In this document: positions 1 to 39,100 of the stretch, one piece after another | How the letters are laid out: each line of letters opens with the position of its first letter | How positions within the stretch are numbered: the first letter of the stretch is position 1 | Source of the DNA: an uncultured Desulfobacteraceae bacterium | GTDB taxonomy: Bacteria > Desulfobacterota > Desulfobacteria > Desulfobacterales > UBA11574 | Direction of reading: 5' to 3' | NCBI GenBank assembly: GCA_964591175.1 | Contig: CAZQAF010000011.1 | Coordinates: forward strand, 3,208-67,207 | Length of the DNA stretch: 64,000 bases | Translations under genes and position numbers: made by a program | Notes under the pieces: model-generated | Told to the model about the DNA's origin: nothing | What the model saw: the letters and a program-made list of their open reading frames with translations, nothing else | The model's database searches: none

Positions 1-343
1 GTTGACCGGGGTCCCGGTAAAGGTGTCCGTTATTTAGTTCTACCTCAAATGATCGTAAACAAAACGATGAGGAATATTAAAAGTCCAAAAATACAGGGTC
101 TTGCGCTTCTATTAATCGGTTGCGATAAAACGGGCATAGAAAAGTTATTATCAGCCGTTTTTTTTCATCATTTTGTTTACCCTTTGGGAAAGCCGATGAT
201 GCTCCATCTCCTTTGTTATCAAGGGTTCGCAGTAGACGACTACGACTTCACCCTTGATGCCTCGGATATGGGGCACGCTCAACTTTCACTCAATTGAGGT
301 TCTATCTTGGATTAAAACCAGATCGCCGAGGAGATTATATTTC

Positions 344-3300
344 ATGTTTGAGTTTTTCTACAAGCGGCCCCATATGTTATACAGCATCATTGCCGCCTTT
401 TTTGTCATGGGACTGATCGGGCTGATCGTCATGCCGAAAAACCTTTTTCCGGATGCCGAAAGGCCCCAGGTTGTCGTGATTTCACAGGTTCCCGGCGCAA
501 CGCCCGATGTGGTTGCATCCACGGTTTCAAAGCCGATCGAACAGGAAATCAGCACGCTGGGACTTGTCCGGGATATCAGCTCGGTCAATATCGCCGGTAT
601 TTCTGTGGTCAAAGCCGAGTTTGAGTATGAAAAAGGCTTAAACTCGGCGGCGGTTGATGTCAACAATTCCTTGAATAAGATAAAAGCAAAACTTCCTCCC
701 AACGTAAATCCTTCCATCTACATTGCAGGTGCCTTCACACTGCCGGTGGATATTTTTGCGTTAAGCCCCGCAAATAAATCCGTATCCCTTGGAGATATCA
801 GAAAGATTGTTGAAAGCGACATCAAGCCCGCATTGTTGAGAGACCCGGCCGTCGGGAATGTGGAAGTGTTTGGCGGTTACGAGGGTGCTTTTCTCATTGA
901 ACTTGATCCGTTAAAGAGCAGAAGTTATAATATCAGTCCCGATAATGTTATTAATTCCCTGGGACAATTTAATAAAAATCTTCCCATCGGATTTGTCAAA
1001 GGGGATAACCGATTCTATACACTCACCTTTTACGGAGAAAGAGATCGCGTTGAAAACCTGAAGAATCTTTATGTGGCACCCAATGTCAGGCTGGCTGATA
1101 TTTCAACGGTGAATTGGAGCTATCAAAAACGATTTTCAGGTTATCTGGGCAACGGAAAAGAAGCCATTGCCGTCGCAATTCAGCGCACACCGGGAGGAAG
1201 CGTGCTGGCCACCAGCACGGCAGCGCGGAAGAACATCAAAGCTCTCGAACATCGATACCCGAATATTCATTTTGAAATTTCGGATACCCAGAGAGATCTA
1301 CTTCAGACCGCCAACCGGAACATGCTGGAAGCCTTGAGAGACGCCATTATTTTCACATTGATTGTGCTTCTCTTTTTTCTGGGGAATTTGAAAGCCATCA
1401 CCGCCGCCCTGATTTCCATCCCCATGGTATTTTTTTCCACGCTGGCCATTATCTGGCTCAGTGGCGGTGAATTAAATATCGTTGTTTATACTGCAATTAT
1501 TCTGGCCTTAGGCTTGCTCGTAGATGACGCGGTGGTTGTGCTTGAAAATATTGAGCGACATATGAGCGAACTCAAGGAAGAACTGGAAACTGCCATTGAG
1601 AAAGGGACAAAAGAGGTTATTGCACCTGTTTTTGCCGGAACCGTGGCCACCATATCCATCATAGCGCCCCTCATGTTCGTAGGAGACTTTCCTCAGCGTA
1701 TTTTCAGAAACCTGATCTCTGCTTTGATCATCGCTTTGCTCGCATCGTACTTTCTTTCCATTACGTTTATCCCCCATTTTTCAAAATTTTTATACCGAAA
1801 AGGAATAAAAAAAAATCGGTTCGAGAATCTTTGTGAAAGGCTTTATCAAAAATCCCTGGGGCGTTTGGTAAATCCCTATATTTCGGTGCTTAAATTTTCA
1901 AACGGCCGGCATTCACTGATACGAAAAATCCTCATGACCAGCGCTGTTTTTCTTTTTCTTATTTTAAGTTTAAAAACCATCATGCCGGTGATCGGAAAAG
2001 ACGTCATGCCACCCATGGATACGGGTATTATTAAGGCCAATATAAAATTCAGCGCCAATGAAACCGTTGATGAAGCCATCAACCGAATTCAGTCATTTAC
2101 AAAATGGCTGCATACACGACCCGAAGTTGAAAAAAGCTCCATTTCCTTCGGCAGTGAACCCGGTGTGCTTTCGCTGGGAAACGGCGCACTTCCCACCGAG
2201 GCGGTCATGAGCATCATTTGTGTGGACCGGTTTTCAAGAAAAAAAACACTGTGGCAGATCGAGGATGAAATAAGGGATCAGTTAGGACGTTTAAAAAATG
2301 TAAAAAGCGTTGACGTTTATGACTTTGGCGCCACGCCCATGTCTTCCATTAAAGCGCCGGTGGATGTGCGAATCTTCGGAGAAGATTATCGTGAACTGCC
2401 GGTGGTCGCCCAAAAGGTTAATATCGAACTCGCAAAGGTCAAAGGCTTGACTTCCACAAACATCAGTTGGGACAATGATTTTTCTGAAATCGTCCTTAAC
2501 ATTGATCAGAATAAAGCGCAGTATTATGGAATTTCTCCGGTTCAAATGGCCGGGCAACTGGCGCTGAAGGGGTTTCCGGTGTCCCTTAACGCCAACCTTT
2601 CCACCTTTACCGTACAACCGGTTCGGCTCTATTACCAAGGTCCGTATGGTGAAAATGCCGAGACGTTGAGACTGATCCCCATAAAAACACCAAAAGGGTT
2701 TGTCCCGCTCTCACAACTGGCGCAATTGAACTACTCTCTGACCCCATCAAAAATTGAGCGGGATATGATGCTTTACAGTATCGATGTAAATGGTTATCGG
2801 GCGAAACGTCCTGTCACCATCTTAACGGCTGATGCGATAGATTCCGGCAAGCATCTTGACACCTCCGGGTTTATCGTCAGCCAGGAGGGAGATATTAAAC
2901 AGTTGAACGACAGTTTCTCACGAATGATCAAGGCCATTGGAATCGGGGTTATCATCCTAACCTTTGCACTGATTTCTATTTATCGTTCCGTAGTGTTGGC
3001 TATGGTAATGATCGTTGTTTTGCCGCTGTCGATGATTGGCGCATCCTGGGGCATGCTGCTTTTCAACAAACCCAGTTGTATGCCGAGCATGGTGGGGATA
3101 CTTCTTCTATTTGGCATTATCATTAAAAATTCGGTTTTACTGGTTGATTTTTACCAGGAGCATCGAAAAACGGCAGCGCCTTTTGATGCAGCCGTAGAAA
3201 GTGTCAGAATCAGATATAGACCCGTTATGATGACGGCGTTCGGTACCATTGCAGGCATGATTCCCATAGCTCTTGAAAGAGCGGTGGGACTGGAAAGGCT

Positions 3301-3403
3301 GTCGCCTCTGGCAGATGTGGCTGTGGGGGGCCTCCTGATAGGAACGATACTGACGTTGATTTTTGTGCCCATGTTCGCCTACAGCTTTGACAGGAAAAGG
3401 TAA
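344..3403 (+). CDS. RND-family efflux transporter permease (AcrB/CzcA-like)
   Basis: ORF 254-3403. About 1020 aa, with an N-terminal TM helix (IIAAFFVMGLIGLIVMP), the RND-type motif LLVDDAVVVLENIERH and a second TM bundle near the C-terminus. Start moved to ATG 344, which has GAGGAG 10 nt upstream. Confidence 0.88.
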   Translation: MFEFFYKRPHMLYSIIAAFFVMGLIGLIVMPKNLFPDAERPQVVVISQVPGATPDVVASTVSKPIEQEISTLGLVRDISSVNIAGISVVKAEFEYEKGLNSAAVDVNNSLNKIKAKLPPNVNPSIYIAGAFTLPVDIFALSPANKSVSLGDIRKIVESDIKPALLRDPAVGNVEVFGGYEGAFLIELDPLKSRSYNISPDNVINSLGQFNKNLPIGFVKGDNRFYTLTFYGERDRVENLKNLYVAPNVRLADISTVNWSYQKRFSGYLGNGKEAIAVAIQRTPGGSVLATSTAARKNIKALEHRYPNIHFEISDTQRDLLQTANRNMLEALRDAIIFTLIVLLFFLGNLKAITAALISIPMVFFSTLAIIWLSGGELNIVVYTAIILALGLLVDDAVVVLENIERHMSELKEELETAIEKGTKEVIAPVFAGTVATISIIAPLMFVGDFPQRIFRNLISALIIALLASYFLSITFIPHFSKFLYRKGIKKNRFENLCERLYQKSLGRLVNPYISVLKFSNGRHSLIRKILMTSAVFLFLILSLKTIMPVIGKDVMPPMDTGIIKANIKFSANETVDEAINRIQSFTKWLHTRPEVEKSSISFGSEPGVLSLGNGALPTEAVMSIICVDRFSRKKTLWQIEDEIRDQLGRLKNVKSVDVYDFGATPMSSIKAPVDVRIFGEDYRELPVVAQKVNIELAKVKGLTSTNISWDNDFSEIVLNIDQNKAQYYGISPVQMAGQLALKGFPVSLNANLSTFTVQPVRLYYQGPYGENAETLRLIPIKTPKGFVPLSQLAQLNYSLTPSKIERDMMLYSIDVNGYRAKRPVTILTADAIDSGKHLDTSGFIVSQEGDIKQLNDSFSRMIKAIGIGVIILTFALISIYRSVVLAMVMIVVLPLSMIGASWGMLLFNKPSCMPSMVGILLLFGIIIKNSVLLVDFYQEHRKTAAPFDAAVESVRIRYRPVMMTAFGTIAGMIPIALERAVGLERLSPLADVAVGGLLIGTILTLIFVPMFAYSFDRKR

Positions 3404-3487
3404 TCCAAAAGAAATGTTATCTTGAATAATACCAGCATAGAGTCTTTCCGAAAACAAAATTAGAACGACAAGGGGGTAATTAGCCAA

Positions 3488-4429
3488 ATGAAATTAAAGC
3501 GCAACCATCATAAAAATGATCAAACAACAACGTTTCCCTGGTCTATATGGAGCAGCATCCCCCTGAATAAAAAAATATGGATATATCGGTTGGCTGTATT
3601 TTTAGCAATTTTTTTGACTTCGAATGCTTTATGCTATGCATCGGATCAGAAAGTCGAAAGTTTGAAACAACTGATAGAAATTTATGACCCGACAGATTGC
3701 CGGGAATGCCATGAAGAAATCTATGACCAATGGCAAAATTCCCATCATGCAAGATCCATCACAGGGATATTCATGGAACGGTACCTCAAGAAAGGTCCTT
3801 TCTCGGTGAAGAATCCCGGGCATGCCACCAAAAAGAATTTTCCCTGTTTTAAATGCCATCTTCCACAACTGGAGAAAGCAACCGATGCAGTGGCGGCAGA
3901 AATTGCCGGGGTTATTTTAAACGATGACAAAGCCACTATGAAAAAACTCAACATTTCCTGCCTGGTCTGTCACCAGGACAAAGCCGTGGTCCATGGTTTG
4001 CCGGAAAGCAATGTCATGTATGGTCCCAAGGCTAAAAAAGAATATCCTGAAAAAGAGCACATGAGGGTCAAAAAGAGTCCCTTCATGACGCAAGCTGCCA
4101 TGTGCGGCCAGTGCCACGGCTTAGGACCCATTTTTGAATTTGATTATCCCATTCAATGCGCCACGCTCTACGGAAGCTACCTGCATGCTTACATCCCGTC
4201 CGGCGGCACTCAAACCTGTCAGGAGTGCCACATGAAAAACGCCGACCATACCTGTCCACCCAACTTTAATGATAGAAAAGAGGTGTCGGAAAGACTGCGA
4301 CAAGCCCTGCCCCTCGAAGTGGAAGTATTGAGTTACCGGTTTCAGCCCTTTGAAAAAATATTTGTTTCAACCATTGTCGTTAAGACAAAGATCACCAGCA
4401 AGGCCGGACATAGAATTCCGGACGGCTGA
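3488..4429 (+). CDS. Pentahaem c-type cytochrome with N-terminal signal anchor; ends at an in-frame TGA
   Basis: Five CxxCH motifs (CRECH, CFKCH, CLVCH, CGQCH, CQECH). Hydrophobic N-terminus LAVFLAIFLTSNALCYA. AAGGGGG lies upstream of ATG 3488. Confidence 0.85.
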   Translation: MKLKRNHHKNDQTTTFPWSIWSSIPLNKKIWIYRLAVFLAIFLTSNALCYASDQKVESLKQLIEIYDPTDCRECHEEIYDQWQNSHHARSITGIFMERYLKKGPFSVKNPGHATKKNFPCFKCHLPQLEKATDAVAAEIAGVILNDDKATMKKLNISCLVCHQDKAVVHGLPESNVMYGPKAKKEYPEKEHMRVKKSPFMTQAAMCGQCHGLGPIFEFDYPIQCATLYGSYLHAYIPSGGTQTCQECHMKNADHTCPPNFNDRKEVSERLRQALPLEVEVLSYRFQPFEKIFVSTIVVKTKITSKAGHRIPDG

Positions 4430-4750
4430 CCTTCCAAGAATCGGGTGGTCCTGGAAGTGACCGCGACGGACAATAAATCAAAAGTTATATTTAAAACATC
4501 GAAGATCTACATGCCTCAGTCGACGACATCACTGGACAACACCATGGTGTACGGCCCTGACAAAAAGCTCGGAATCATCAGGGATACGAGCATTCAACCG
4601 TTTGCATCCAAAGAAGAAACATTTGAAATCAAGGTTCCTGAAAGCGTCAAAGATGTGAATGTCGCGGTCAGTCTCAGTTATCAGCTTCGGCCCGGGGATG
4701 TCTATCCGATCCAAAAGATCATAAAAAAGGTATCTGTTGGAACCCCGTAA
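4430..4750 (+). CDS. Probable C-terminal continuation of the cytochrome through UGA 4427-4429 (candidate Sec); otherwise a separate 101-aa ORF from GTG 4445
   Basis: Same reading frame as 3488-4429, with an open frame across the gap (PSKNR). No SD before GTG 4445. Hairpin 4431-4457 lies directly after the TGA. Confidence 0.5.
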   Translation, partial: PSKNRVVLEVTATDNKSKVIFKTSKIYMPQSTTSLDNTMVYGPDKKLGIIRDTSIQPFASKEETFEIKVPESVKDVNVAVSLSYQLRPGDVYPIQKIIKKVSVGTP

Positions 4751-4847
4751 TACTATATTTTTGGAATAAGGATGACGCATTATTTTTTTGTTGACATCGA
4801 TCTGTCGTTTGTGTACTACAATGTACCATAAGCAAGAGGCAATTATC

Positions 4848-4928
4848 ATGAAAACAAAATATTCAAACACATTGAACGGTGACATAATGATGTCCATGAT
4901 GCGTACCCGAGGTGCGCCCATGGATTGA
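4848..4928 (+). CDS. Candidate 26-aa Met-rich leader peptide (MKTKYSNTLNGDIMMSMMRTRGAPMD)
   Basis: ATG 4848 with AAGAGG 8 nt upstream. Six Met codons, including ATG ATG TCC ATG ATG at 4887-4901. The stop lies 23 nt before a terminator. Below the ORF-track size cutoff. Confidence 0.35.
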   Translation: MKTKYSNTLNGDIMMSMMRTRGAPMD

Positions 4929-4950
4929 TCATCTGGAATTTTTGATCGTT

Positions 4951-4993
4951 AAAGCCGTGGGTAATGAAAAAACCTGCGGCTTTTTTATTTTTT
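4951..4993 (+). terminator. Rho-independent terminator / attenuator hairpin
   Basis: Stem GCCGTGGG (4954-4961) pairs with CCTGCGGC (4973-4980), 8 bp including two G.U pairs, 11-nt loop, followed by TTTTTTATTTTTT. Confidence 0.6.
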
Positions 4994-5281
4994 AAGGAAC
5001 AATTATCGAATGTTTTTAACCCGCTTTACATCAAATATCTGCTTCATCGCCATACCTGTCCGGCTCCGCCTATGGATAATGACGGGGCTCCATTGGGAGC
5101 CGCATCATGGCAGTTTACCCTTATTTAAGTAGGAAACAAAAATATTTGCCACCAAGGCACAAAGACACGAAGGATTTTATTTTATTATTCTTTTTTAGTG
5201 TCTTGGTGTCTTTGTGGCGAGAAAAAATTGCCACAAAAAGTATAGAATTTAAAATTAAGAAACGAATAAGGAGATATACTC

Positions 5282-6469
5282 ATGGCCAAAACCATAGAAG
5301 AGATCAATGCCAAAATTCGATCCGGAAAAGTGGTGGTGTTCACCGCCGAAGAGATTATAGAAGTGGTCCGGGAAAAAGGGATCAAACAGGCTGCTCGGGA
5401 GGTGGATGTGGTGACCACCGGAACCTTCAGCCCCATGTGTTCTTCGGGCGCTTTTTTCAACATAAAACAGCAAAAACTAAAGATGAAGTTCGGCGGCGGA
5501 TTCGCCACTTTGAATGGCGTACCGGCGTATGCCGGCCTGGCAGCCGCCGACATCTACGTGGGGGCCACGGCGATTCCCGACGGCGATCCCCGCAACGGCA
5601 ACGGCCGCCCGGGAAAATTCCGGTATGGCGGCGCCCACGTCATCGAGGACCTGGTTGCCGGGAAAAAAGTCCTGCTCAAAAGCGGTGCTTATGGTACCGA
5701 TTGTTATCCGCTGAAAGCCCGGGAACAGACAATCGGACTGGAAGACATGAACGATGCATTCCTGTTCAACCCGAGAAACTGCTATCAGAACTATAATGTC
5801 GCCGTCAACCTTTCCGATAAACCTATATACACTTACATGGGAAAACTCAAACCCAAGCTGGGAAATGCATACTATTGCAGCGCCGGTCAACTGTCACCCT
5901 TGCTAAACGATCCGTATTTCCGTACCATCGGTATCGGCACCCGGGTATTTTTCTGCGGTGCAGAGGGCTATGTTGCCTGGCCCGGCACCCAGCACAATCC
6001 AACAGCGCCGAGGCTGGAAAACGGCACGCCGCAAACCCCGGCCGGAACCATTGCCCTGATCGGAGACATGAGGCAGATGAGTGGGGAATGGCTTCGGGCG
6101 GTTTCCTTTACCGGATATGGCGTAACACTGAGCGTGGCCGTGGGGGTTCCCATTCCCATTATAGACGAAGACATGTTGCGTTCGGTTTCCGTTACCGACG
6201 ACCAGCTCAAAGCGCCGGTGGTCGATTACAGTGAATATTATCCCTTGGGCCAAGGGGAAGCAAAACTCGGGGAGGTCACCTATCAGGCGCTGAAATCCGG
6301 AAGTATCCGCATCAAAGACCAAAAGGTGCCGACCGGATCTTTTTCCAGCTATGCTTTGGCCCGAAAGGTGGCCCATCATCTCAAACAGGTCATTGAAGAC
6401 GGCGATTTTTTGCTGACGCAATTCCAGGCGCCGCTCCCGGGTGCTGCAACAGAAAAGGAGGCCGCATAA
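5282..6469 (+). CDS. Homocysteine biosynthesis protein, DUF39/COG1900 family (aspartate-semialdehyde sulfurtransferase-like)
   Basis: N-terminal region VVVFTAEE...VDVVTTGTFSPMCSSGAFFN is typical of COG1900. AGGAG lies before ATG 5282. Paired with a NIL-ferredoxin gene. Confidence 0.85.
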   Translation: MAKTIEEINAKIRSGKVVVFTAEEIIEVVREKGIKQAAREVDVVTTGTFSPMCSSGAFFNIKQQKLKMKFGGGFATLNGVPAYAGLAAADIYVGATAIPDGDPRNGNGRPGKFRYGGAHVIEDLVAGKKVLLKSGAYGTDCYPLKAREQTIGLEDMNDAFLFNPRNCYQNYNVAVNLSDKPIYTYMGKLKPKLGNAYYCSAGQLSPLLNDPYFRTIGIGTRVFFCGAEGYVAWPGTQHNPTAPRLENGTPQTPAGTIALIGDMRQMSGEWLRAVSFTGYGVTLSVAVGVPIPIIDEDMLRSVSVTDDQLKAPVVDYSEYYPLGQGEAKLGEVTYQALKSGSIRIKDQKVPTGSFSSYALARKVAHHLKQVIEDGDFLLTQFQAPLPGAATEKEAA

Positions 6470-6885
6470 TGAAACAGACAAAACTGGTTTTTATTTTTCC
6501 TGAAGATACCGTTGAAGAGCCGGTAACCTACAACCTGATCGCCGATTACGGCGTCCGGGTGAATATTTTGCGCGCCAGCATCGATCCCGGGAAACAAGGA
6601 CGTATGGTGGTGGAATTGGGGGGCGAGGAAATTCAGATTTCTCAAGCCCTGAACTATCTGGAAAGCCTCGGTGTAGTGGTTGCGCCGTTGGCTCAGAAGA
6701 TCCGGCACCTCGAAGACCGCTGTACCGGCTGTACGGCCTGTGTGCCCCACTGCCCGACCCGGGCGCTGGACGTGGATCGTGATTCCTGGAAAGTATCCTT
6801 TGATTCTGAAAAGTGTATTGTTTGTTTCTCCTGTCTGGAAACCTGCGTTTATCACGCCATGTCAGTGGAAGAACAGTTTGCATAG
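6469..6885 (+). CDS. NIL domain plus 2x[4Fe-4S] ferredoxin protein (partner of the DUF39 protein)
   Basis: NIL-like N-terminus (LVFIFPEDTVEEPVTYNLIADYGVRVNILRASI). Cluster motifs CTGCTACVPHCP and CIVCFSCLETC. The start overlaps the upstream stop (TAATG). Confidence 0.85.
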   Translation: MKQTKLVFIFPEDTVEEPVTYNLIADYGVRVNILRASIDPGKQGRMVVELGGEEIQISQALNYLESLGVVVAPLAQKIRHLEDRCTGCTACVPHCPTRALDVDRDSWKVSFDSEKCIVCFSCLETCVYHAMSVEEQFA

Positions 6886-9321: not shown

Positions 9322-9846
9322 ATGTTGCTTGAATCCTATAAAATGGAAATTTTCAGGGCCGAGTGCAATCCGGGTTTTGAAGCGCTGCATTGTTTTGCCC
9401 ATCTGGATCAGGATGTGGGAGAGGCGATCCCTTACCTCAATGCCGTTCTCGGCGGGTTTACGTATCAAAAAGACCCGCCCAGCGTCACCTTCAAAGCCCA
9501 TGGCAAACTCATCACGGTTCATGGCAAAAAGATCGCCGTCAATGCACTTAAAGATGAAATCGAAGCCGCTAAAATCATCGAATGGCTGAAACGAGAGATC
9601 AATTCGGCCTGGAAAAATCGAGATAATATCGAACCCCTGTACGAAGCGGCTCCCCACCCCAAGGTCATTGAAATCCTCAAGCTGCTGCCGAAAACCAATT
9701 GCAAAGAATGCGGCCTGCCCACCTGCATGGTTTTTGCCGCCCTGGTGGCCGAAGGCGCAAAAGGACCTGAAAACTGCCCGCCCTTGTGCGATGCAGATAG
9801 AGAACGACTGACGGGTTATTTGGGGCAATTTCGCTTTGATTATTAA
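9322..9846 (+). CDS. Small Fe-S cluster domain protein (RnfB/CFeSP N-terminal type Cys motif)
   Basis: Motif NCKECGLPTCMVFAALVAEG...CPPLC. AGGAGG lies before ATG 9322. Confidence 0.6.
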   Translation: MLLESYKMEIFRAECNPGFEALHCFAHLDQDVGEAIPYLNAVLGGFTYQKDPPSVTFKAHGKLITVHGKKIAVNALKDEIEAAKIIEWLKREINSAWKNRDNIEPLYEAAPHPKVIEILKLLPKTNCKECGLPTCMVFAALVAEGAKGPENCPPLCDADRERLTGYLGQFRFDY

Positions 9847-9962: not shown

Positions 9963-10937
9963 GTGAAGCTGCCATCCCGGGTTTCAAAAAAGCTACTATT
10001 TTTATATCTTGGGCTCTTTCTGATCATGCTCCTTGCTTCAGGGTGCAGCAGTGATACCGGTTATACGCCGGTGAATTTCTCCAACACCGTTAAAATAGAA
10101 AAATCCACATCCTTAAATGACAAATCTCACACGTTGAAAGTCGCCGTATCGGCGATGGTTTCTCCCAAGGAAACCTTTTCCACTTATCGCAATCTGCTTG
10201 GCTATATCGGCGAACATCTGAATTACAAGATTCAACTCGTTCAACGGAAGACATACGATGAAATTAACGAACTTTTTCTAAAACGACAGATCGATTTGGC
10301 ATTTATTTGTTCAGGACCCTATGCCGTCGGTAAAGAAAAATATGGTTTCGAGGCATTGGCCGTCCCTGTTATCCGGAACAAGCCTTCTTACCAGGCGTAC
10401 CTCATTGTAAACAAAGACAGCGCCATCGAGAATCTTGAAGGGTTAAGGGGAGGCGTGTTTGCCATGACAGACCCGGCATCGAATACCGGTGCCATGGTGC
10501 CGCTCTATTGGCTGGCGAAAATGGGCGAGAAACCGGATACTTTTTTTAAAAATGTTACATATACATACAGCCATGACAATTCAATACTCGCCGTTGCTAA
10601 ATCCTTGGTGGACGGCGCTGCCGTGGACGGCATGATCTGGGAGTATTATAACGCCCGAAATCCGATTTACACATCCCAAACCCGCGTGATTAAAAAATCG
10701 ATTCCTTTTGGAAGCCCGCCTTTCGTGGCATCCAAATACCTGGCCCCCGAAATCAAAGCAAAAGCCCGGGATCTGCTCCTTAACATGCACAAAGATCCAA
10801 AGGGCAGATCCATTTTAAAGGCGCTGATGATCGACCGTTTTATATCCCCGAAGGACACCTGGTACCAGCCCGTACGTGAAATGAAAAAACAACTGAATAT
10901 CGTATACAGGGATTCGAATGTGGCCCAAAGATTTTAG
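9963..10937 (+). CDS. PhnD-type (phosphonate-binding fold) periplasmic solute-binding lipoprotein, probable sensor partner
   Basis: Signal peptide with lipobox LLASGC. PBP type-2 features (VAVSAMVSP, DLAFICSGPY, MTDPASNTGA). The 3' end overlaps the activator gene by 20 nt. Confidence 0.8.
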   Translation: MKLPSRVSKKLLFLYLGLFLIMLLASGCSSDTGYTPVNFSNTVKIEKSTSLNDKSHTLKVAVSAMVSPKETFSTYRNLLGYIGEHLNYKIQLVQRKTYDEINELFLKRQIDLAFICSGPYAVGKEKYGFEALAVPVIRNKPSYQAYLIVNKDSAIENLEGLRGGVFAMTDPASNTGAMVPLYWLAKMGEKPDTFFKNVTYTYSHDNSILAVAKSLVDGAAVDGMIWEYYNARNPIYTSQTRVIKKSIPFGSPPFVASKYLAPEIKAKARDLLLNMHKDPKGRSILKALMIDRFISPKDTWYQPVREMKKQLNIVYRDSNVAQRF

Positions 10938-13125
10938 AAAACGGCTCATATTGACCATTGCCGTAATCGTCATGGTCAGCGGCCTGATTATTTCCCAAAT
11001 CGTCATCCACCGATACAGCGCTACCTTATTCCAAATGGCGGCTGCCCAGGGCGAAAATATCGCACACAACCTTGCCTTGGATGCCGCCGACAAAATCCTC
11101 ATCAATGACTTGGTTTCCCTCCAAAATCTCCTTGACGACCGGGTACGAAGCAATCCAAAGATCGCCTATCTGTTTGTTGTCAGGGATCACCGGGTACTTA
11201 CCCATACATTTTCTAAAGGAATACCTGTTGAGCTGATAAATGCCAATGCCCCGGTTAACAGCCACCAGGGGCATTTGAAAAAAATTATTTCAAACACAAA
11301 CGACCGGTATATGGATTTTGCCTGGCCCATTTTTGAGGGCAAAGCCGGTATATTGCGTCTCGGATTATCTGAAAAACCGTTTCGAAACCAGATCCGTCAA
11401 CTCTGGATTCGAATGAGTGTCATTGCATTTGTGATTTTGATACTCGCGTTGGTTGTCGCACATCTTCTGGTCAAACATATCACTCGGCCGCTGGTTCAAC
11501 TCACCGAACAGGTTGAAAAAATCGATGAAGGTCATTTGAATGTGAACATCGAAAGCAACGACCATGACGAAATCGGCCGTCTGGGCGCATCTTTCAAACA
11601 GATGCTGACGCGTATCCAGAATTACACGCTGAGGCTCACAGAATATGCCAACCGCCTCGAAGAGAAAAATAGAGAACTGAATCTCGCCCACCGACAAACC
11701 CGGATTTCTTTCGAAATTGCCAAGGAAGTGGGCGCCTTGCCGAACTTAAAGGCGGTTTGCGAGTTTCTCGTTAAAAAGCTTCAAAATGTCGTCAAGTGCC
11801 AACATATGGTATTTGCGGTTTTCAGCAGCAAAAAGTCGGTTTTATTTGCCTATTCGGGAGACAATCTTACTACGGTAGAGGGAAACACGGTTGATACTTT
11901 GGCCATGGATCTGTCAAAGATCGAACAAATCGAATGTGTTGACAGCAATCAAATACATTTTGAGTTTAACGAACTGTCGTCGGCAAAAAAAACAATGGTG
12001 TATCCTATTCGACTCGAAAAGAGGCTGCTGGGAGCGATATATATCGGATGCCCCGAAGGCTGCGAATGCGCCGTCAATGAACTCGATATTATCGACTTGG
12101 TTCTGAGCCAATCCGGCGGAGCGATTTTGAGGGCAACCTTGTATGAGGATGAAATCGGCGATTTGAAACAAAAGGTCGATCAAACCGGATTTTCCGGCAT
12201 GATCGGTAAAGACCCCCAGATACAGGTCATATTTAAGCTAATTGAGGATGTCGCGCCATCGGATGCGACGGTATTGATCCAGGGCGAAAGCGGTACCGGA
12301 AAAGAAATGGTGGCCCATGCCATTCATCGCAACAGTTTTCGCAAAAACAAGCCTTTTGTGGTGATCAACTGTTCGGCATATCCGGCAACGCTTTTGGAGA
12401 GCGAACTTTTCGGGCATGAAAAAGGCGCATTTACCGGTGCGCTGAAAACCAAGCCCGGTCGTTTCGAACAGGCCGACGGTGGTACCGTTTTTTTGGATGA
12501 AATCGGCGAAATACCGCCTTCCGCCCAGATCAAACTGCTGCGGATATTGCAAAGCAGAAAGTTCGAGCGATTGGGCGGTCGGGAAACACTGTCCGTGGAT
12601 GTCCGCATTCTGGCGGCGACAAATAAAAACCTGCTGCAGGAGGTCAAAGACGGCCGATTTCGTGAGGATCTTTTCTATCGTTTAAACGTCATTCCGATCC
12701 ACCTGCCACCATTGAGGGATCGGCGAAACGATCTGCTGCTTCTTGTCCGGCATTTTCTGGATCGGTTTTCCAAAACACAAAACAAAACCGTAAAAGATTT
12801 TTCCACGGAAGTTATGCGAAGACTGATGGATTATTCATGGCCGGGAAATGTTCGGGAGCTGGAAAACACCATAGAACATGCCGTGGTTCTGACCAAGGGC
12901 GAGCAAATCCAGGTTTCGGATTTGCCCTCCGATTTTTTACGAGCAAAAACACCCGCTTCGAACAAAACGGTCAGCCTTGAGGAATCCGAAAAGCAGCATC
13001 TCATTGAAGCTCTCGAAAAATGCCGTTGGAATAAAAAGAAAGCCGCCCAAATTTTAGGTATCGGCCGCAGCACCCTGTACGTCAAACTCAAAAAATATCA
13101 ATTAAAGCCGCCCACTTATCATTAA
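10918..13125 (+). CDS. Membrane-anchored sigma-54-dependent transcriptional activator (periplasmic sensor-HAMP-GAF-like-AAA+-HTH)
   Basis: Two TM helices, a HAMP segment (ITRPLVQLTEQVEKIDEGHL...EIGRLGASFKQM), Walker A GESGTGKE, sigma-54 contact motif GAFTGA, and a Fis-type HTH AAQILGIGRSTLYVKLKKY. Confidence 0.9.
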   Translation: MWPKDFRKRLILTIAVIVMVSGLIISQIVIHRYSATLFQMAAAQGENIAHNLALDAADKILINDLVSLQNLLDDRVRSNPKIAYLFVVRDHRVLTHTFSKGIPVELINANAPVNSHQGHLKKIISNTNDRYMDFAWPIFEGKAGILRLGLSEKPFRNQIRQLWIRMSVIAFVILILALVVAHLLVKHITRPLVQLTEQVEKIDEGHLNVNIESNDHDEIGRLGASFKQMLTRIQNYTLRLTEYANRLEEKNRELNLAHRQTRISFEIAKEVGALPNLKAVCEFLVKKLQNVVKCQHMVFAVFSSKKSVLFAYSGDNLTTVEGNTVDTLAMDLSKIEQIECVDSNQIHFEFNELSSAKKTMVYPIRLEKRLLGAIYIGCPEGCECAVNELDIIDLVLSQSGGAILRATLYEDEIGDLKQKVDQTGFSGMIGKDPQIQVIFKLIEDVAPSDATVLIQGESGTGKEMVAHAIHRNSFRKNKPFVVINCSAYPATLLESELFGHEKGAFTGALKTKPGRFEQADGGTVFLDEIGEIPPSAQIKLLRILQSRKFERLGGRETLSVDVRILAATNKNLLQEVKDGRFREDLFYRLNVIPIHLPPLRDRRNDLLLLVRHFLDRFSKTQNKTVKDFSTEVMRRLMDYSWPGNVRELENTIEHAVVLTKGEQIQVSDLPSDFLRAKTPASNKTVSLEESEKQHLIEALEKCRWNKKKAAQILGIGRSTLYVKLKKYQLKPPTYH

Positions 13126-13154
13126 ATTTCATTAAACCCGATCCATAACCGTTA

Positions 13155-13203
13155 TGTCCAGATAATGTTCAGGCCAATAAAAAATGTGTCTATAATCTGG
13201 ACA
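13155..13203. promoter_or_regulatory. Inverted repeat TGTCCAGAT-N31-ATCTGGACA, candidate enhancer (UAS) site
   Basis: Perfect 9-bp arms at 13155-13163 and 13195-13203, about 255-300 bp upstream of the sigma-54 promoter. Confidence 0.4.
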
Positions 13204-13455
13204 CCCATAATGTCTCGTTATTTCATGATATATTCTCAAATCCAAAATAATACGTCCTGAGATCTTACACACTGTACAAATCGGTATCGGTTCTATTTTT
13301 TGTATCGATTTTCGTTGTTATTCACATCTTAGACACTCACCTCGTTTTTAGTAACCAAATTCTCCTTTTAATTTCATATAGATAATACCACCATACTTTT
13401 TGTATGGCAGTATCTTAGAAACCCTCAAAAGGTCGACGTCCACTTCAAATATCCA

Positions 13456-13470
13456 TGGCACAGGTCTTGC
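13456..13470 (+). promoter_or_regulatory. Sigma-54 (-24/-12) promoter TGGCAC-N5-TTGC
   Basis: Exact consensus TGGCACaggtcTTGC, 69 nt upstream of ATG 13539 and immediately downstream of a sigma-54 activator gene. Confidence 0.7.
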
Positions 13471-13538
13471 TCTGTACTTGCTCTGTATTTGATCGTTAGA
13501 AACCTTGATTCCGGAAAACCTCTAAAAAAAAATCAGGA

Positions 13539-13907
13539 ATGAAAAAAAAAATTCTCGTGATGAACGCCGATGAAAAAGAAAGCGGTGACCTATGCACCCT
13601 TCTGAATGAACGGCAGTATCTTGCCACCCCAACCTATTCATTGCCGGAAATGATCACGTTCATTCAGAATATCCAATGCATGGTTGTGATTATGGATCTT
13701 GATACGGTTCCCATTGATAACCGGACCATTCGGGAATTGACCCTAAAATACCCGGAGGTCTACTTTTTATGTCTATCCAAAGACCGATTTCACCCCCACC
13801 TAAAAGAAGCTCTGTGCTACCACATTTATGCATGTATCAATAAACCGGTCGATCCGGATGAATTATTTTTCTGGCTGAAAAGTATACGCGAAGAGAAGGG
13901 CGTATGA
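13539..13907 (+). CDS. Stand-alone response-regulator receiver domain protein
   Basis: 122 aa. KILVMNADEKE, phospho-acceptor context VVIMDLD, CLSK, and INKP (conserved Lys-Pro). Confidence 0.7.
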   Translation: MKKKILVMNADEKESGDLCTLLNERQYLATPTYSLPEMITFIQNIQCMVVIMDLDTVPIDNRTIRELTLKYPEVYFLCLSKDRFHPHLKEALCYHIYACINKPVDPDELFFWLKSIREEKGV

Positions 13908-13973
13908 AACAACCTTTTAAAATAACTTTCAATAATTTCATACCACAAAAACCTTAATGAAGGAGGTATTTAA

Positions 13974-14900
13974 ATGGAAAAGAGTACGCCATCCAGCCGG
14001 AGCCCGAATTCGAAGAATGAAGGCGGTCTCGCTTCTGAGCTTAAAAGCGTGAACCTAAAGCGGAGAACGTTTCTAAAAAATTCCCTGATGGCCGCCGGAA
14101 GTCTGGGTGCATTGAACTGTTTCTTGGAAAGAGATGCCCTGGCAGACGATGAACAAAAGGCTGCGCCATTGCAGTTTCCAAAAAATTTTTCCGACGGAAG
14201 TTCACTGGAACGCATGCGGGTGGAGCTATTACAAGCCCTGAAAAAACCGGTCTCCGAGCGCAAATGGGTCATGGTGATCGACCAGAAAAAATGTGTGGGT
14301 TGTGATTCATGCACGGTATCCTGCAATTCGGAGAATAATTTACCGCCGGGTGTGGTCTACCGTCCGGTTCCGAAACAAGAGGCCGGTACATTTCCGAATA
14401 TGGCCTGGATATTCACCCCCAAGCCCTGTATGCACTGTGACCAACCGCCCTGTGTACCGGTTTGTCCGGTTAAAGCCACCTGGAAGCGCGAAGACGGCAT
14501 CGTGGTCATCGATTACGATATCTGTATCGGATGCCGAAATTGTCTGGCATCCTGCCCGTATAACGCGCGAACCGCCGATTTCGGTGATTTCTTCGGCAGG
14601 GGAACCCCGGAGATCATGAGTTATGAAACCCGCCCCAACTATGAATACAGCAAAGACTGGGTCAGAAAACCGGGTACCGAAAAATCTCCTATCGGAAATG
14701 CCCGAAAATGCACCTTCTGTTTGCACCGAATACGCGTCGGCATGCTGCCGGCCTGTGTGACCACATGCCTGGGAGGTGCGACGTATTTTGGCGATTACAA
14801 CAGCAAGCACAGTCTGGTCCATGAACTCATCGGATCTGCCCGGGTCAAACGGTTAAAAGAAGAGCTGGGTACCCAACCTTCCGTATATTATTTGGTATAA
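13974..14900 (+). CDS. Tat-exported 4x[4Fe-4S] electron-transfer subunit of a molybdopterin oxidoreductase (TtrB/PsrB-like)
   Basis: Twin-arginine signal [19 protein letters not shown]. Cys groups [37 protein letters not shown] and CTFCLHR...CVTTC. Confidence 0.9.
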
Positions 14901-14916
14901 AAAAGGAGAATAAACG

Positions 14917-16065
14917 ATGAATAAACCACAAAAAACCATATTGTTTATTATCTGGCTGGTTCTGTTGGTTTGGGGACTGATCGGGGTTTTCCAGCGTATG
15001 TCGTCAGGTGAACTCGCCATGAATTATGGGAGCTACATCCCCTGGGGATTATGGGTGGCCGGAAAAGTGTATTTTGTCGGTCTTGCCGTTGGGGCATCCT
15101 TTATTGCATGGTTAATTTACGCTTTCAACATTCGAGCCCTTAAACCGTTGACGCGAATATCCCTGCTGATATCCATCGCCACCATCATCGCCGGCCTTAT
15201 CGTCATCTCTTTTGATCTGGGCCACATGTGGCGCTTGTATGAAGTTTATACAAGACCCAATTTTTCTTCCCTCCTGGCGATCGCCTCCTGGTTAACCCTG
15301 GCGTATTTGATTTACCTGGTGATCGTATTGGGAATCGATCTTAAATCCGGACGACAAACAGGAAATGTACCCCGTGTTTGGGGCTGGGTCGGCATCTTTT
15401 TCGCCATCGCTTTTTCCGGTGCCAATGGTGCGGAATTCGCCACCATGGTTTCCAGCCCTTACTGGCATTCGTCCATAGGACCGATTTTGTCCATTGCCGG
15501 GGCCTTGCTTTCCGGAATTGCACTGGTGCTGGCTGTCAGCGCTTTGTCCGCAACCGACGACGGTATTGATGAGCAAATTATTAAAATATTAAGCCGGGCA
15601 GTCATCGGCCTTATTCTTTTCGTACTGGTATTGGAATGGTCCGAATATTCGGTTGCCATGTGGTATGGCCGAGGGGGCGATTATATTTCCATATCCTCCA
15701 TCCTTTTCGGTCACTACTGGTATGTGTTCTGGATTGTCCATCTGGCTATCGGATCCATCTTACCTTTGTTTCTTCTGTTGTGGCAACCCGCCAAACGCCT
15801 GGTCGCCGGTTTTTCCGGAGCCCTGGTGGCGATAACCTATATGGCGGTTCGCTTGAACCATGTCATTCCGGGTCAGATCACGCCGGCCATGAAAGGTTTG
15901 CAAGAGGCCTATACGGACAAGTGGCTGACGTTTAAATATTTCCCATCTCCCACCGAATGGGCGGTTTTTGCTTTTTCCGTAGCCGTCTGTATCGCCCTGT
16001 TTTGGCTGGGCAGCCGCATTATACCCGTTGGTTCACTCAAATCCGTTGACGAGGGAGGACGATAA
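14917..16065 (+). CDS. NrfD/PsrC/TtrC-type integral membrane quinol-interacting subunit
   Basis: 382 aa, hydrophobic throughout (8-10 predicted helices), located between the FeS and catalytic subunits. Confidence 0.85.
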   Translation: MNKPQKTILFIIWLVLLVWGLIGVFQRMSSGELAMNYGSYIPWGLWVAGKVYFVGLAVGASFIAWLIYAFNIRALKPLTRISLLISIATIIAGLIVISFDLGHMWRLYEVYTRPNFSSLLAIASWLTLAYLIYLVIVLGIDLKSGRQTGNVPRVWGWVGIFFAIAFSGANGAEFATMVSSPYWHSSIGPILSIAGALLSGIALVLAVSALSATDDGIDEQIIKILSRAVIGLILFVLVLEWSEYSVAMWYGRGGDYISISSILFGHYWYVFWIVHLAIGSILPLFLLLWQPAKRLVAGFSGALVAITYMAVRLNHVIPGQITPAMKGLQEAYTDKWLTFKYFPSPTEWAVFAFSVAVCIALFWLGSRIIPVGSLKSVDEGGR

Positions 16066-16067
16066 CC

Positions 16068-19256: not shown

Positions 19257-19345
19257 TAAAAGGTACTAAAGTTCCGTGCGGTCGGTATTGTTTTTTAGAT
19301 CCCTTTCGACATGATTGGGAAGATATTGATTCTGTTATTTAAAAC

Positions 19346-19930: not shown

Positions 19931-19975
19931 ATTTTTTGAATCTATAAGAGTTGATTTCAATTTTTTTTGTGGTAT

Positions 19976-19997
19976 GTTATGTTAACGTTAACATAAC
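19976..19997. promoter_or_regulatory. Perfect 22-bp palindrome GTTATGTTAAC|GTTAACATAAC, operator-like
   Basis: Seen directly. Ends 14 nt before the likely fmdE-family start at 20011. Confidence 0.4.
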
Positions 19998-39089: not shown

Positions 39090-39100
39090 AGGGCAAAATT

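What the first reader, a model, noticed from the sequence alone, without database searches (positions are those of the whole stretch)
3488..4750. In-frame UGA with an adjacent hairpin joins a pentahaem cytochrome to a 106-aa tail: candidate selenocysteine codon
Seen in sequence:
- ORF 3488-4429 (five CxxCH motifs) stops at TGA 4427-4429, right after ...AGHRIPDG.
- ORF 4445-4750 is in the same frame, and the 15 nt between them are open (PSKNR).
- There is no Shine-Dalgarno sequence before GTG 4445.
- One nt after the TGA a hairpin can form: CUUCCA 4431-4436 pairs with UGGAAG 4452-4457, with a 15-nt loop containing GGUGG. This is where bacterial SECIS elements sit.

Established knowledge: Sec decoding is widespread in Desulfobacterota.

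Inference: the real product is one 420-aa selenoprotein. A Sec (or Cys in homologues) next to a multihaem domain would recall the Cys-ligated haems of TsdA, SoxA and DsrJ, which is speculative.
Basis: partly seen in the sequence, partly recalled or inferred. Interest (0 to 1): 0.65.

Follow-up and report, generated by a model that had tools for sequence, protein, structure and literature searches.

The report
Known selenocysteine pentahaem cytochrome (MccSep/ExtKL)

Summary
The sequence facts hold: ORF 3488-4429 has five CxxCH motifs and ends at TGA 4427-4429. An open, in-frame 106-codon tail follows, to TAA 4748-4750.

The fused 420-aa product matches NCBIfam NF040886, "multiheme c-type cytochrome (seleno)protein ExtKL", at 452.7 bits (cutoff 250). 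It also matches the crystal structures of Geobacter sulfurreducens MccSep (9wt8/9wt9, E 1e-65) across the stop. Sec314, the haem-2 ligands His124 and Cys224, and Lys360 align with U325, H122, C239 and K372.

All 80 best genomic relatives have an in-frame stop at this column, followed by a conserved tail (TGA read in 75). One full-length homologue has Cys there.

The conserved SECIS-like element is GUGGUC 4445-4450 / GACCGC 4459-4464. It is paired in 99% of cells across 74 sequences, has compensatory changes at two pairs of synonymous sites, and sits where synonymous sites are frozen. It fits the published bacterial SECIS model. The "GTG start" at 4445 is the first three bases of that stem.

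No sel genes or tRNA-Sec lie in the window.

Verdict: interpretation supported; family already described; low novelty.

The parts
3470..3476 (+). Shine-Dalgarno-like AAGGGGG, 11 nt before the ATG
   Evidence: Read directly from the sequence.
3488..4750 (+). Whole mccSep/extKL-type gene: 313 codons, then UGA (Sec314), then 106 codons, then TAA. The product is 420 aa.
   Evidence: NF040886 at 452.7 bits against a cutoff of 250, covering profile positions 15-422 of 423. PDB 9wt8/9wt9 MccSep at E 1e-65, aligning residues 51-385 across the Sec column.
3488..3640 (+). Probable Sec-type signal peptide (residues 1-51, hydrophobic core IWIYRLAVFLAIFLTSNAL, ...CYA|SDQK)
   Evidence: Read from the sequence. 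The same ...LCYA|SDQKVESL junction is seen in homologue P0002. Not tested with a signal-peptide predictor. MccSep is periplasmic (PMC13510729).
3698..3712 (+). Haem 1 motif CRECH (C71-H75)
   Evidence: Invariant in alignment A1 and in the 75-sequence codon alignment.
3845..3859 (+). Haem 2 motif CFKCH (C120-H124). H124 aligns with MccSep H122, the proximal ligand of the active-site haem.
3959..3973 (+). Haem 3 motif CLVCH (C158-H162)
4103..4117 (+). Haem 4 motif CGQCH (C206-H210)
4157..4159 (+). Cys224, which aligns with MccSep C239, the distal Cys ligand of haem 2
   Evidence: Mapped from the HMMER alignment to 9wt9. Invariant in A1 and in all 75 sequences of the codon alignment.
4217..4231 (+). 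Haem 5 motif CQECH (C244-H248)
4427..4429 (+). UGA decoded as selenocysteine (Sec314), which aligns with MccSep U325
   Evidence: Aligned to position 325 of the U325A chain. An in-frame stop is present in all 80 genomic relatives, read as TGA in 75. Cys is present in P0012.
4431..4457 (+). It can form here, but it is not conserved and probably not functional.
   Evidence: 82% of cells paired, with four of six pairs broken in 13-28 of 74 sequences. The Pro and Ser codons in its 5' arm show ordinary synonymous variation. Its loop is 15 nt; with the inner pairs of the MFE fold, the apical loop lies only 13 nt after the UGA. Both fall outside the bSECIS model.
4445..4464 (+). Conserved SECIS-like stem-loop: GUGGUC (4445-4450), loop CUGGAAGU (4451-4458), GACCGC (4459-4464). 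In the MFE fold C4451-G4457 and U4452-A4456 also pair, U4458 bulges and the apical loop is GGA.
   Evidence: RNAalifold picks this stem. 99.1% of cells are paired, 9 cells carry compensatory changes at pairs 4447/4462 and 4450/4459, and 0 of 500 shuffles reach these values. Synonymous sites are frozen over 4445-4462, with normalised codon entropy 0.00-0.33 against a gene mean of 0.83. MFE is -9.1 kcal/mol, z -1.99.
4430..4747 (+). [quoted passage not shown] Gene callers report it as a separate 101-aa ORF starting at GTG 4445.
   Evidence: Aligns to MccSep residues 326-397. Its amino acids are conserved while synonymous sites are saturated. It is called as a separate 101-aa gene in public contigs.
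4565..4567 (+). Lys360, which aligns with MccSep K372 (water-mediated contact with Sec; the K372A mutant has a much lower Vmax)
   Evidence: Position worked out by hand from the alignment printed. Lys in 99% of 75 sequences. Role taken from PMC13510729.

Best explanation
Positions 3488-4750 are one gene. It encodes a secreted, periplasmic pentahaem c-type cytochrome selenoprotein of the MccSep (ExtKL) family.

How the UGA is read (inferred from the bacterial Sec pathway): the ribosome reaches UGA 4427-4429, and SelB carrying Sec-tRNA(Sec) is recruited by a stem-loop inside the coding sequence. That stem-loop is GUGGUC 4445-4450 / GACCGC 4459-4464 with a GG-containing apical loop. Sec314 is inserted and translation continues for 106 more codons.

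What the tail does (by homology with the G. sulfurreducens crystal structure): it completes a C-terminal Ig-like domain that places Sec314 next to haem 2. Haem 2 is ligated by His124 and Cys224.

Likely chemistry (inferred by homology only): the selenolate attacks a chalcogen substrate, polysulfide in Geobacter and less efficiently selenite. This forms a Sec-Se-(S/Se)-S-Cys intermediate, which is reduced by electrons arriving through the five-haem chain, releasing sulfide.

Shown here: family membership, conservation of the UGA, translation of the tail, the conserved RNA stem, and the catalytic residues.
Not shown here: Sec insertion in this organism, the substrate, and the electron donor.
For: Family membership:
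- NF040886 ExtKL (seleno)protein at E 9.4e-136, 452.7 bits against a cutoff of 250, nearly full-length.
- PDB MccSep 9wt8/9wt9 at E 1e-65, 42% identity over 330 aligned positions. U325, H122 and C239 map to Sec314, His124 and Cys224, and K372 to Lys360 (alignment).

The UGA is conserved and the tail is translated:
- Nearly all of the 120 best database homologues are about 300 aa. The nine read in full end at ...AGHRIPDG. The one 406-aa homologue reads ...IPDGCPSETKVVLDV.
- All 80 best genomic loci, from Desulfobacterota, Nitrospirota and Brocadiia MAGs, have a stop at the column with the tail in frame (TGA read in 75).
- Tail residues are conserved while their synonymous sites are saturated, so the tail is under protein-level selection.

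The RNA stem:
- Chosen by RNAalifold.
- 99.1% of cells paired. The pair 4450/4459 changes C-G to U-A or G-C, and the pair 4447/4462 changes G-C to U-A or C-G. Both pairs join third codon positions. 0 of 500 shuffles reach these values.
- Synonymous sites are frozen exactly over 4445-4462.
- It meets all four constraints of the published bSECIS model.

TGA is otherwise a stop here: 10 of 44 genes of at least 150 aa end in TGA.

Experiments on the Geobacter member (PMC13510729): 0.96 Se per subunit, the junction peptide ...IPDGUPTPNR seen by mass spectrometry, U325A/C and C239H nearly inactive, and polysulfide reductase activity essential for S0 respiration.
Against: - No selA, selB, selD or tRNA-Sec lies in the 64-kb window, so Sec-decoding capacity of this genome is inferred, not shown.
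- The Geobacter ext cluster context is absent. Here an RND efflux pump lies upstream and an HcyBio/NIL-ferredoxin pair downstream.
- MccSep R83, which binds the anionic substrate, falls in a 6-residue gap of this clade. Substrate preference may therefore differ.
- The stem is short and nearly invariant. The covariation rests on roughly four to five independent events.
- No Rfam family matches, as expected, because bacterial SECIS elements are not modelled as one family.
Confidence: 0.93

Rival explanations
1. Two separate genes, the old extK and extL annotation. TGA 4427 is a true stop and a 101-aa protein starts at GTG 4445.
For: Automatic gene callers make exactly this call in public contigs (313 aa plus 101 aa). 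TGA is a normal stop elsewhere in the window.
Against: - No Shine-Dalgarno sequence precedes GTG 4445.
- The 15 nt between the stop and the GTG encode conserved PS[KRH]N/T R/E/Q in frame in 80 of 80 relatives.
- A Cys-type homologue is one chain.
- The solved homologue is one chain, and the stop would cut its Ig-like domain in two (PMC13510729).
- GTG 4445 lies inside the conserved RNA stem.
Confidence: 0.02
2. Same selenoprotein, but the functional SECIS is the first reader's hairpin directly after the UGA (4431-4436/4452-4457), or the two mutually exclusive hairpins alternate.
For: It is part of the MFE fold of the 60-nt context in this window. One of its pairs (4432/4456) shows several pair types, and its covariation score exceeds all but 1 of 500 shuffles. 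The published survey folded only the UGA plus 30 nt. That stretch can hold this hairpin but not the 3' arm of the downstream one.
Against: - Only 82% of cells are paired, and four of six pairs are broken in 13-28 of 74 sequences.
- Synonymous sites in its 5' arm vary freely (normalised entropy 0.86 and 0.59).
- Its 3' arm is conserved, but that arm is the loop of the other hairpin.
- RNAalifold does not choose it.
- Its loop is 15 nt, or its apical loop lies 13 nt from the UGA. Both violate the bSECIS constraints.
- Folding from the UGA onward gives the downstream hairpin as both MFE and centroid.
Confidence: 0.07
3. A true MccSep-family selenoprotein whose physiological job here is not respiratory S0/polysulfide reduction. 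It may instead be periplasmic detoxification or turnover of another chalcogen or metalloid species, such as selenite or polysulfide stress.
For: - No ext cluster is present. The gene sits after an RND efflux operon.
- In relatives the commonest neighbours are an SBF/ACR3-type transporter (45 of 76 loci), a PF04060 Fe-S protein (37), DsbD/CcdA (24), a Thioredoxin_3 protein (22), an ArsP permease (22) and a DGC protein (9).
- R83 of MccSep is not alignable here.
- Geobacter MccSep also reduces selenite.
Against: - The catalytic triad Sec/Cys/Lys and all haem motifs are conserved.
- The organism lives in sulfidic salt-marsh sediment.
- The same window holds a Ttr/Psr-like molybdoenzyme cluster, a rhodanese and YeeE-TusA, so respiratory sulfur chemistry is plausible.
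- Geobacter MccSep showed no arsenite activity.
- Neighbourhood is weak evidence of function.
Confidence: 0.25
4. A pseudogene, or a sequencing or assembly error that created the stop.
For: None beyond the presence of an in-frame stop.
Against: Identical TGA in five independent contigs and in two assemblies at word depths of 127 and 37. The stop is kept across phyla, with purifying selection on both sides.
Confidence: 0.01

Closest known systems
MccSep (ExtKL, GSU2937-2936) of Geobacter sulfurreducens PCA; PDB 9wt8-9wtc; NCBIfam NF040886
   Same: Five CxxCH haems. The GH.IPDG-U-P motif with Sec. The conserved distal Cys ligand of haem 2 and its proximal His. The Lys that contacts Sec. An N-terminal signal sequence. 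A C-terminal Ig-like domain that carries Sec. An in-frame UGA followed by a coding-region stem-loop. 42% identity over 330 aligned residues.
   Different: - It lacks several insertions of the Geobacter protein, including the loop that holds substrate-binding R83.
- It is not in an extHIJKLMNOPQS cluster (compared).
- The SECIS-like hairpin is at a different place and has a different sequence. In the Geotalea-like locus L087 the equivalent columns do not pair, and the fold uses ACCGAC/GUCGGU or UGACCGAC/GUCGGUCA instead.
- Activity and oligomeric state are untested here.
Bacterial SECIS elements (bSECIS consensus model of Zhang and Gladyshev 2005, as summarised in PMC13188914; E. coli fdhF is the type example)
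   Same: A stem-loop inside the coding sequence just after the UGA. Upper stem of 6-8 bp. Small apical loop beginning G-G (GGA here; UGGAU or GGUA in relatives). 23 nt between the UGA and the apical loop. MFE of -9.1 kcal/mol. A bulged U next to the loop.
   Different: No sequence similarity to the fdhF element. The bulged U is on the 3' side here; from memory, it is on the 5' side in fdhF. SelB binding is not tested.
His/Cys-ligated haem enzymes TsdA, SoxAX and DsrJ
   Same: In the MccSep structure the active-site haem is His/Cys-ligated, and the chemistry is chalcogen-chalcogen bond making or breaking at that Cys. The MccSep authors draw the same parallel.
   Different: No homology: none of these families appears among the Pfam, NCBIfam or PDB sequence matches. 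The Cys ligand is Cys224, not the Sec. Sec is a second, non-ligating nucleophile 3.6 A away, which those enzymes lack.

Membership tests
MccSep / ExtKL multihaem cytochrome c (seleno)protein (NF040886) | Curated family HMM score above the cutoff over the full length | tested here: met
   452.7 bits against a cutoff of 250, E 9.4e-136, residues 38-417 matching profile positions 15-422 of 423.
MccSep / ExtKL multihaem cytochrome c (seleno)protein (NF040886) | Five conserved CxxCH haem c motifs | tested here: met
   C71-H75, C120-H124, C158-H162, C206-H210 and C244-H248, all invariant in A1 and in the 75-sequence codon alignment.
MccSep / ExtKL multihaem cytochrome c (seleno)protein (NF040886) | Sec (UGA) or Cys at the conserved GH.IPDG-[U/C]-P site | tested here: met
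   TGA 4427-4429 aligns with position 325 of MccSep. A stop is present at the column in all 80 relatives, read as TGA in 75. Cys is present in P0012.
MccSep / ExtKL multihaem cytochrome c (seleno)protein (NF040886) | Strictly conserved distal Cys ligand (C239) and proximal His ligand (H122) of haem 2 | tested here: met
   Cys224 and His124 align with them and are invariant. Actual ligation is inferred from the homologous structure.
MccSep / ExtKL multihaem cytochrome c (seleno)protein (NF040886) | C-terminal Ig-like domain continuous with the haem domain, carrying Sec and the Lys that contacts it (K372) | tested here: met
   The alignment to 9wt9 runs from residue 51 to 385 across the stop. 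Lys360 aligns with K372 in that alignment and is 99% conserved.
MccSep / ExtKL multihaem cytochrome c (seleno)protein (NF040886) | Substrate-binding Arg (R83) at the channel entrance | tested here: inconclusive
   R83 lies in a 6-residue stretch (TGRTAA) that is a gap in this protein. No invariant Arg replaces it in alignment A1. A structural comparison would be needed.
MccSep / ExtKL multihaem cytochrome c (seleno)protein (NF040886) | Periplasmic location through a signal peptide | not tested
   A hydrophobic N-terminal stretch and a CYA|SD junction are visible. No signal-peptide predictor was available.
MccSep / ExtKL multihaem cytochrome c (seleno)protein (NF040886) | Selenium in the protein; polysulfide or selenite reductase activity; tetramer | not testable with these tools
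   Known only for the G. sulfurreducens enzyme (PMC13510729).
Geobacter extHIJKLMNOPQS cluster | Neighbouring rhodanese ExtH, porin ExtI, ExtJ, multihaem ExtM/N, Rieske ExtO and cytochrome b ExtP | tested here: not met
   Window neighbours are an RND pump, HcyBio, a NIL-ferredoxin and an AMP-binding enzyme. The full cluster is seen in the Geotalea-like locus L087. This is a feature of the Geobacter locus, not of the protein family.
Bacterial SECIS (bSECIS consensus model) | Apical loop of 3-9 nt on an upper stem of 4-16 bp | tested here: met
   A 6-bp conserved stem with an 8-nt loop, or in the MFE fold 8 bp with a bulged U and a GGA loop. Constraints taken from PMC13188914.
Bacterial SECIS (bSECIS consensus model) | G in the first two apical-loop positions, usually followed by G or U | tested here: met
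   Loop GGA in the window's MFE fold, UGGAU in L020 and GGUA in L083. G4453 is invariant and G4454 at least 90% conserved (columns 36-37 of A2). In the minimal 6-bp version the 8-nt loop starts CU, so this criterion depends on the two extra loop-closing pairs.
Bacterial SECIS (bSECIS consensus model) | 16-37 nt between the UGA and the apical loop; MFE of -7.5 kcal/mol or lower | tested here: met
   23 nt from A4429 to G4453 (21 nt to the 8-nt loop). MFE is -9.1 kcal/mol for 4443-4466.
Bacterial SECIS (bSECIS consensus model) | Evolutionary support for the pairing (covariation) | tested here: met
   Two pairs carry compensatory double changes at synonymous sites. 99.1% of cells are paired, and 0 of 500 shuffles reach these values. 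Synonymous sites are frozen over the stem.
Bacterial SECIS (bSECIS consensus model) | Binding by SelB; presence of selA, selB, selC and selD in the genome | not testable with these tools
   No tRNA gene was found in the window and no sel gene among the ORFs that were scanned. The rest of the genome is not available.

The most novel reading that the evidence does not exclude
Two readings are not excluded.

(a) In the large Desulfobacterota/Nitrospirota clade that holds this gene, Sec insertion is directed by a nearly invariant hairpin, GUGGUC-N8-GACCGC, that begins 18 nt after the first base of the UGA. The published family survey folded only the UGA plus 30 nt, which cannot contain its 3' arm. 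The family's SECIS in this clade would then be different from, and better defined than, what is on record, and different from the Geobacter clade.

(b) Outside Geobacter the enzyme sits next to efflux, ACR3, ArsP, thioredoxin and CcdA genes rather than a respiratory ext cluster, and it lacks the R83 loop. This leaves room for a detoxifying or otherwise non-respiratory chalcogen reductase role.
Probability: 0.3. Interest if true: 0.4.

Novelty: already known. Interest (0 to 1): 0.2.

Why it matters
For annotation, the 313-aa and 101-aa ORFs that gene callers report here, and in hundreds of public contigs, should be merged into one 420-aa selenoprotein. Almost all of the roughly 300-aa database entries of this family are truncations at Sec.

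For biology, it adds a salt-marsh Desulfobacterales-like member to a newly characterised class of polysulfide-reducing haem-selenium enzymes. That fits the sulfur-cycling gene content of the window.

The only modestly new points are a covariation-supported position for the SECIS element in this clade and the non-ext gene context. Neither changes the picture of how the enzyme works.

Tried and rejected
- Rfam at the gathering threshold over the window, and at E up to 10 over 4350-4550: no SECIS-type match, only chance hits to toga_FSE and ZFAT-AS1.
- Folding single sequences: the 60-nt and 44-nt contexts are no more stable than shuffles. Thermodynamics alone could not choose between the hairpins. 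Comparative data did.
- A third pairing, GACC 4428-4431 with GGUC 4447-4450: rejected by inspecting alignment A2. Changes at 4447 and 4450 are compensated in the downstream arm, not at the invariant UGACC.
- A scan of the window for other in-frame TGA joins, and for read-through extensions of every TGA-terminated gene: only 4427 looks like a Sec site. The others are adjacent genes sharing a frame, for example proS and relA at 43846.
- A search for sel genes and tRNA-Sec in the window: none found.
- A natural control from a Cys-type gene. The contig of P0012 has no DNA on file. The single metagenome scan for GHRIPDGCP codons returned one unrelated GC-rich chance match, L088.
- Geobacter-clade DNA: three of five look-ups were not on record, and one contig ends 24 nt after the TGA. 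Only L087 was usable, so no covariation test was possible for that clade.
- Metatranscriptome contigs cover only 3655-3932 and 4497-4684 and come from near relatives. They show transcription of both parts but not of the junction.
- Structure prediction was not run. The 42%-identical solved structure made it unnecessary.
Full report
**Observation.** ATG 3488 is preceded by AAGGGGG at 3470-3476. It opens a 313-codon ORF with five CxxCH motifs that ends ...AGHRIPDG followed by TGA 4427-4429. The same frame stays open for another 106 codons (PSKNRVVLEVTA...) to TAA 4748-4750. ORF finders report the second part as a 101-aa ORF from GTG 4445, which has no Shine-Dalgarno sequence.

The stop is not an error. 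Five independent public contigs carry it. Two salt-marsh metagenome assemblies are identical over 3300-5000 at word depths of 127 and 37. TGA is otherwise a stop in this window: 10 of 44 genes of at least 150 aa end with it.

**What it is.** I translated the fused 420-aa product with Cys or X at the stop.
- It matches NCBIfam NF040886, "multiheme c-type cytochrome (seleno)protein ExtKL", at E 9.4e-136 and 452.7 bits against a curated cutoff of 250, over nearly the whole profile.
- Pfam sees only generic multihaem domains.
- Against solved structures it matches MccSep of Geobacter sulfurreducens (9wt8-9wtc) at E 1e-65. One alignment runs from residue 51 to 385, straight across the stop, with 42% identity over 330 positions.

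In that alignment the TGA falls on residue 325. His124 aligns with H122 and Cys224 with C239, and Lys360 with K372 (read from the alignment).

The paper behind those structures (PMC13510729, Sci Adv 2026) reports the following for GSU2937-2936 (extKL):
- It is a single periplasmic pentahaem selenoprotein.
- It holds 0.96 Se per subunit, and the junction peptide ...IPDGUPTPNR was seen by mass spectrometry.
- Haem 2 is ligated by H122 and C239.
- U325 extends from a C-terminal Ig-like domain and sits 3.6 A from the Cys sulfur.
- The U325A, U325C and C239H variants are nearly dead.
- The enzyme reduces polysulfide, and less well selenite, and is required for S0 respiration.

ExtKL is also listed among known prokaryotic selenoprotein families in a 2026 review (PMC13188914). 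It was predicted to contain Sec long before that (PMC5877670).

**Comparative test of the Sec codon.** Nearly all of the 120 best database homologues are about 300 aa. The nine I read in full stop at ...AGHRIPDG. The single 406-aa one (P0012, 57% identical) reads ...AGHRIPDGCPSETKVVLDV, with Cys at the column.

A scan of one genome per species found 420 loci. In the best 80, the tblastn match runs on into the tail. These are MAGs labelled Desulfobacterales, Desulfatiglandales, Desulfomonilaceae, Desulfarculaceae, Syntrophobacteraceae, Nitrospirota and Brocadiia, plus a Desulfurivibrio isolate.
- 75 loci passed my motif filter, and all have TGA there.
- The other five, which are frameshifted or partial upstream, also show a stop at the column.

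In a 75-sequence codon alignment the tail holds many amino-acid-conserved columns, such as Y, Q, G, K, R, D, T and P at 4508-4706. Their synonymous sites are near saturation. That is the signature of a translated sequence under purifying selection.

The closest relatives are 88-89% identical, from uncultured Desulfobacterales and "delta proteobacterium" MAGs. Twenty metagenome runs, 19 from salt marsh and one from soil, hold most of the stretch.

**The RNA element.** That fold is no better than shuffled sequence (z +1.10). On an ungapped alignment of 74 distinct sequences (A2), four of its six pairs are broken in 13-28 sequences, with 82% of cells paired.

RNAalifold instead selects GUGGUC 4445-4450 pairing with GACCGC 4459-4464. 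For that stem:
- 99.1% of cells pair.
- The pair 4450/4459 changes from C-G to U-A in three sequences and to G-C in two.
- The pair 4447/4462 changes from G-C to U-A in two sequences and to C-G in two.
- One-sided changes elsewhere are G-U or U-A.
- No shuffle of 500 reaches the observed pairing or covariation.

All four covarying positions are third codon positions (Val, Val, Val, Thr), so the protein does not constrain them.

The codon alignment gives an independent signal. Normalised codon entropy averages 0.83 over conserved, degenerate columns of the gene. It drops to 0.00-0.33 for the five codons at 4445, 4448, 4451, 4457 and 4460.

Folded from the UGA onward, the downstream hairpin is both the MFE and the centroid structure. 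On its own (4443-4466) it has -9.1 kcal/mol and z -1.99, with two extra pairs (C4451-G4457 and U4452-A4456), a bulged U4458 and a GGA apical loop. Relatives give UGGAU or GGUA loops.

Against the published bSECIS constraints (loop 3-9 nt, stem 4-16 bp, G in the first two loop positions, 16-37 nt from the UGA, MFE of -7.5 or lower) this element passes.

The two hairpins cross and would be joined by single-nucleotide linkers, so I consider them mutually exclusive (inference). GTG 4445, the supposed start of the second ORF, is the first three bases of the conserved stem.

The published survey folded only the UGA plus 30 nt. That stretch ends at 4459 and cannot include the 3' arm.

In the one usable Geobacter-clade locus (L087, which carries the full ext cluster), the equivalent columns do not pair and a different fold is predicted. 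The element therefore seems clade-specific.

**Surroundings.**
- Upstream lies an RND efflux operon. Its outer-membrane and adaptor genes are seen on contig L001. Its permease is at 254-3403.
- Downstream lie a small ORF, an HcyBio-family protein (5282-6469), a NIL/4Fe-4S protein (6469-6885), an AMP-binding enzyme on the other strand, and a PF04060 Fe-S protein (9322-9846).
- There is no ext cluster.
- Further on sit a PhnD-like binding protein and a sigma-54 activator (9963-13125).
- Next comes a TtrB-like / NrfD-like / TtrA-like molybdoenzyme set (13974-19256). All three score below the equivalog cutoffs.
- After that come a rhodanese (19346-19930) and molybdenum-cofactor genes.

In relatives the commonest neighbours within about 7 kb are:

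| Neighbour | Loci (of 76) |
|---|---|
| SBF/ACR3-type transporter | 45 |
| PF04060 Fe-S protein | 37 |
| DsbD/CcdA-like membrane protein | 24 |
| Thioredoxin_3 protein | 22 |
| ArsP permease | 22 |
| Rhodanese | 11 |
| DGC protein | 9 |

No tRNA gene was found in the window, and no selA, selB or selD among the ORFs I scanned. No other in-frame TGA looks like a Sec site.

**Mechanism.**
- Shown here: one gene, a conserved UGA, a translated tail, a conserved coding-region stem-loop of bSECIS type, and conserved haem, Cys, Sec and Lys positions.
- By homology with MccSep: Sec314 on a mobile D-G-U-P loop attacks the chalcogen substrate. The adduct is passed to Cys224 on haem 2, and electrons from the five-haem chain reduce the Se-(S/Se)-S bridge.
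- Open questions: the substrate in this organism, because R83 of MccSep falls in a deletion here and the context differs; and the electron donor.

**Comparison and novelty.** This is a member of a described, curated and structurally solved selenoprotein family, and NCBI's naming model for that family would recognise the merged product. I file the finding as already known. What this analysis adds is a corrected, covariation-supported location for the SECIS-like element in this clade, and the note that most non-Geobacter members are not in ext clusters.

Noticed in passing
window 23941-24004 (+), 32621-32690 (-), 34715-34793 (-): Three fluoride riboswitches (RF01734; 54.5, 41.2 and 35.3 bits) lie within 11 kb. 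They sit upstream of a DUF6062 protein plus an MFS transporter (23982-26968), a Na+/H+ exchanger (31006-32466, followed on the same strand by two MutS-domain-V proteins at 26993-30078), and a dynamin-family GTPase (32806-34563). An MgtE gene (34876-36255) lies next to the third one.
   Followed up: partly
window 9963-23311: A possible sulfur-compound respiratory island. It holds a PhnD-like periplasmic binding protein, a sigma-54 activator with HAMP, then TtrB-like (308 aa), NrfD-like (382 aa) and TtrA-like (1062 aa, E 6.9e-152 but far below the equivalog cutoff) subunits, a rhodanese (19346-19930), and molybdenum-cofactor genes (a MoCF_biosynth-domain protein at 20769-21800; the others named by eye from their sequences).
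   Followed up: partly
window 37319-39712: A YeeE/Sulf_transp membrane protein (37319-38512) followed by a TusA sulfurtransferase (38551-38793) and two small ORFs that may be DsrE-like. This looks like a sulfur uptake and trafficking set.
   Followed up: partly
window 5282-6885: An HcyBio-family protein (PF01837; also a weak match to methanogenesis marker 16) lies directly next to a NIL-domain 4Fe-4S ferredoxin. From memory, this pairing is known from sulfide-dependent homocysteine synthesis. The same pair lies downstream of the orthologue in L006 and L008.
   Followed up: no
L006 and L008 (contigs CAVZUV010000018.1 and CAVZUV010000011.1, same MAG): One MAG (MFD02416.bin.2.152) carries two copies of the gene, each 89% identical to the window's and both with TGA. 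L008 shares the window's RND and HcyBio context.
   Followed up: no
L087 6973-7020 (Geotalea daltonii-like contig with the full ext cluster): The Geobacter-clade sequence after the UGA is UGACCGACCCCCAACCGACUGGUUCUGUCGGUCAUAGC. It does not form the hairpin conserved in the window's clade. CCGAC occurs twice, and either copy can pair with GUCGG. The SECIS element seems to have been remodelled between clades.
   Followed up: partly
window residues about 92-98 of the protein (nt 3761-3781): The six residues of MccSep that include R83, the residue binding sulfate or selenite at the channel entrance, are a gap in this clade. The adjacent non-conserved C240 of MccSep is Ala225 here.
   Followed up: partly
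window 4529-4921 (-): A 130-aa antisense ORF overlaps the tail. Similar antisense ORFs appear in 11 related loci. This is best explained as a by-product of the conserved sense-strand coding sequence, not a gene.
   Followed up: partly
related loci L006-L085, within about 7 kb of the gene: Recurrent neighbours form a thiol-redox and metalloid-resistance-like set rather than a respiratory chain. They are an SBF/ACR3-type transporter (45 of 76 loci), a PF04060 Fe-S protein (37), DsbD/CcdA (24), Thioredoxin_3 (22), ArsP permease (22), rhodanese (11) and DGC (9).
   Followed up: partly
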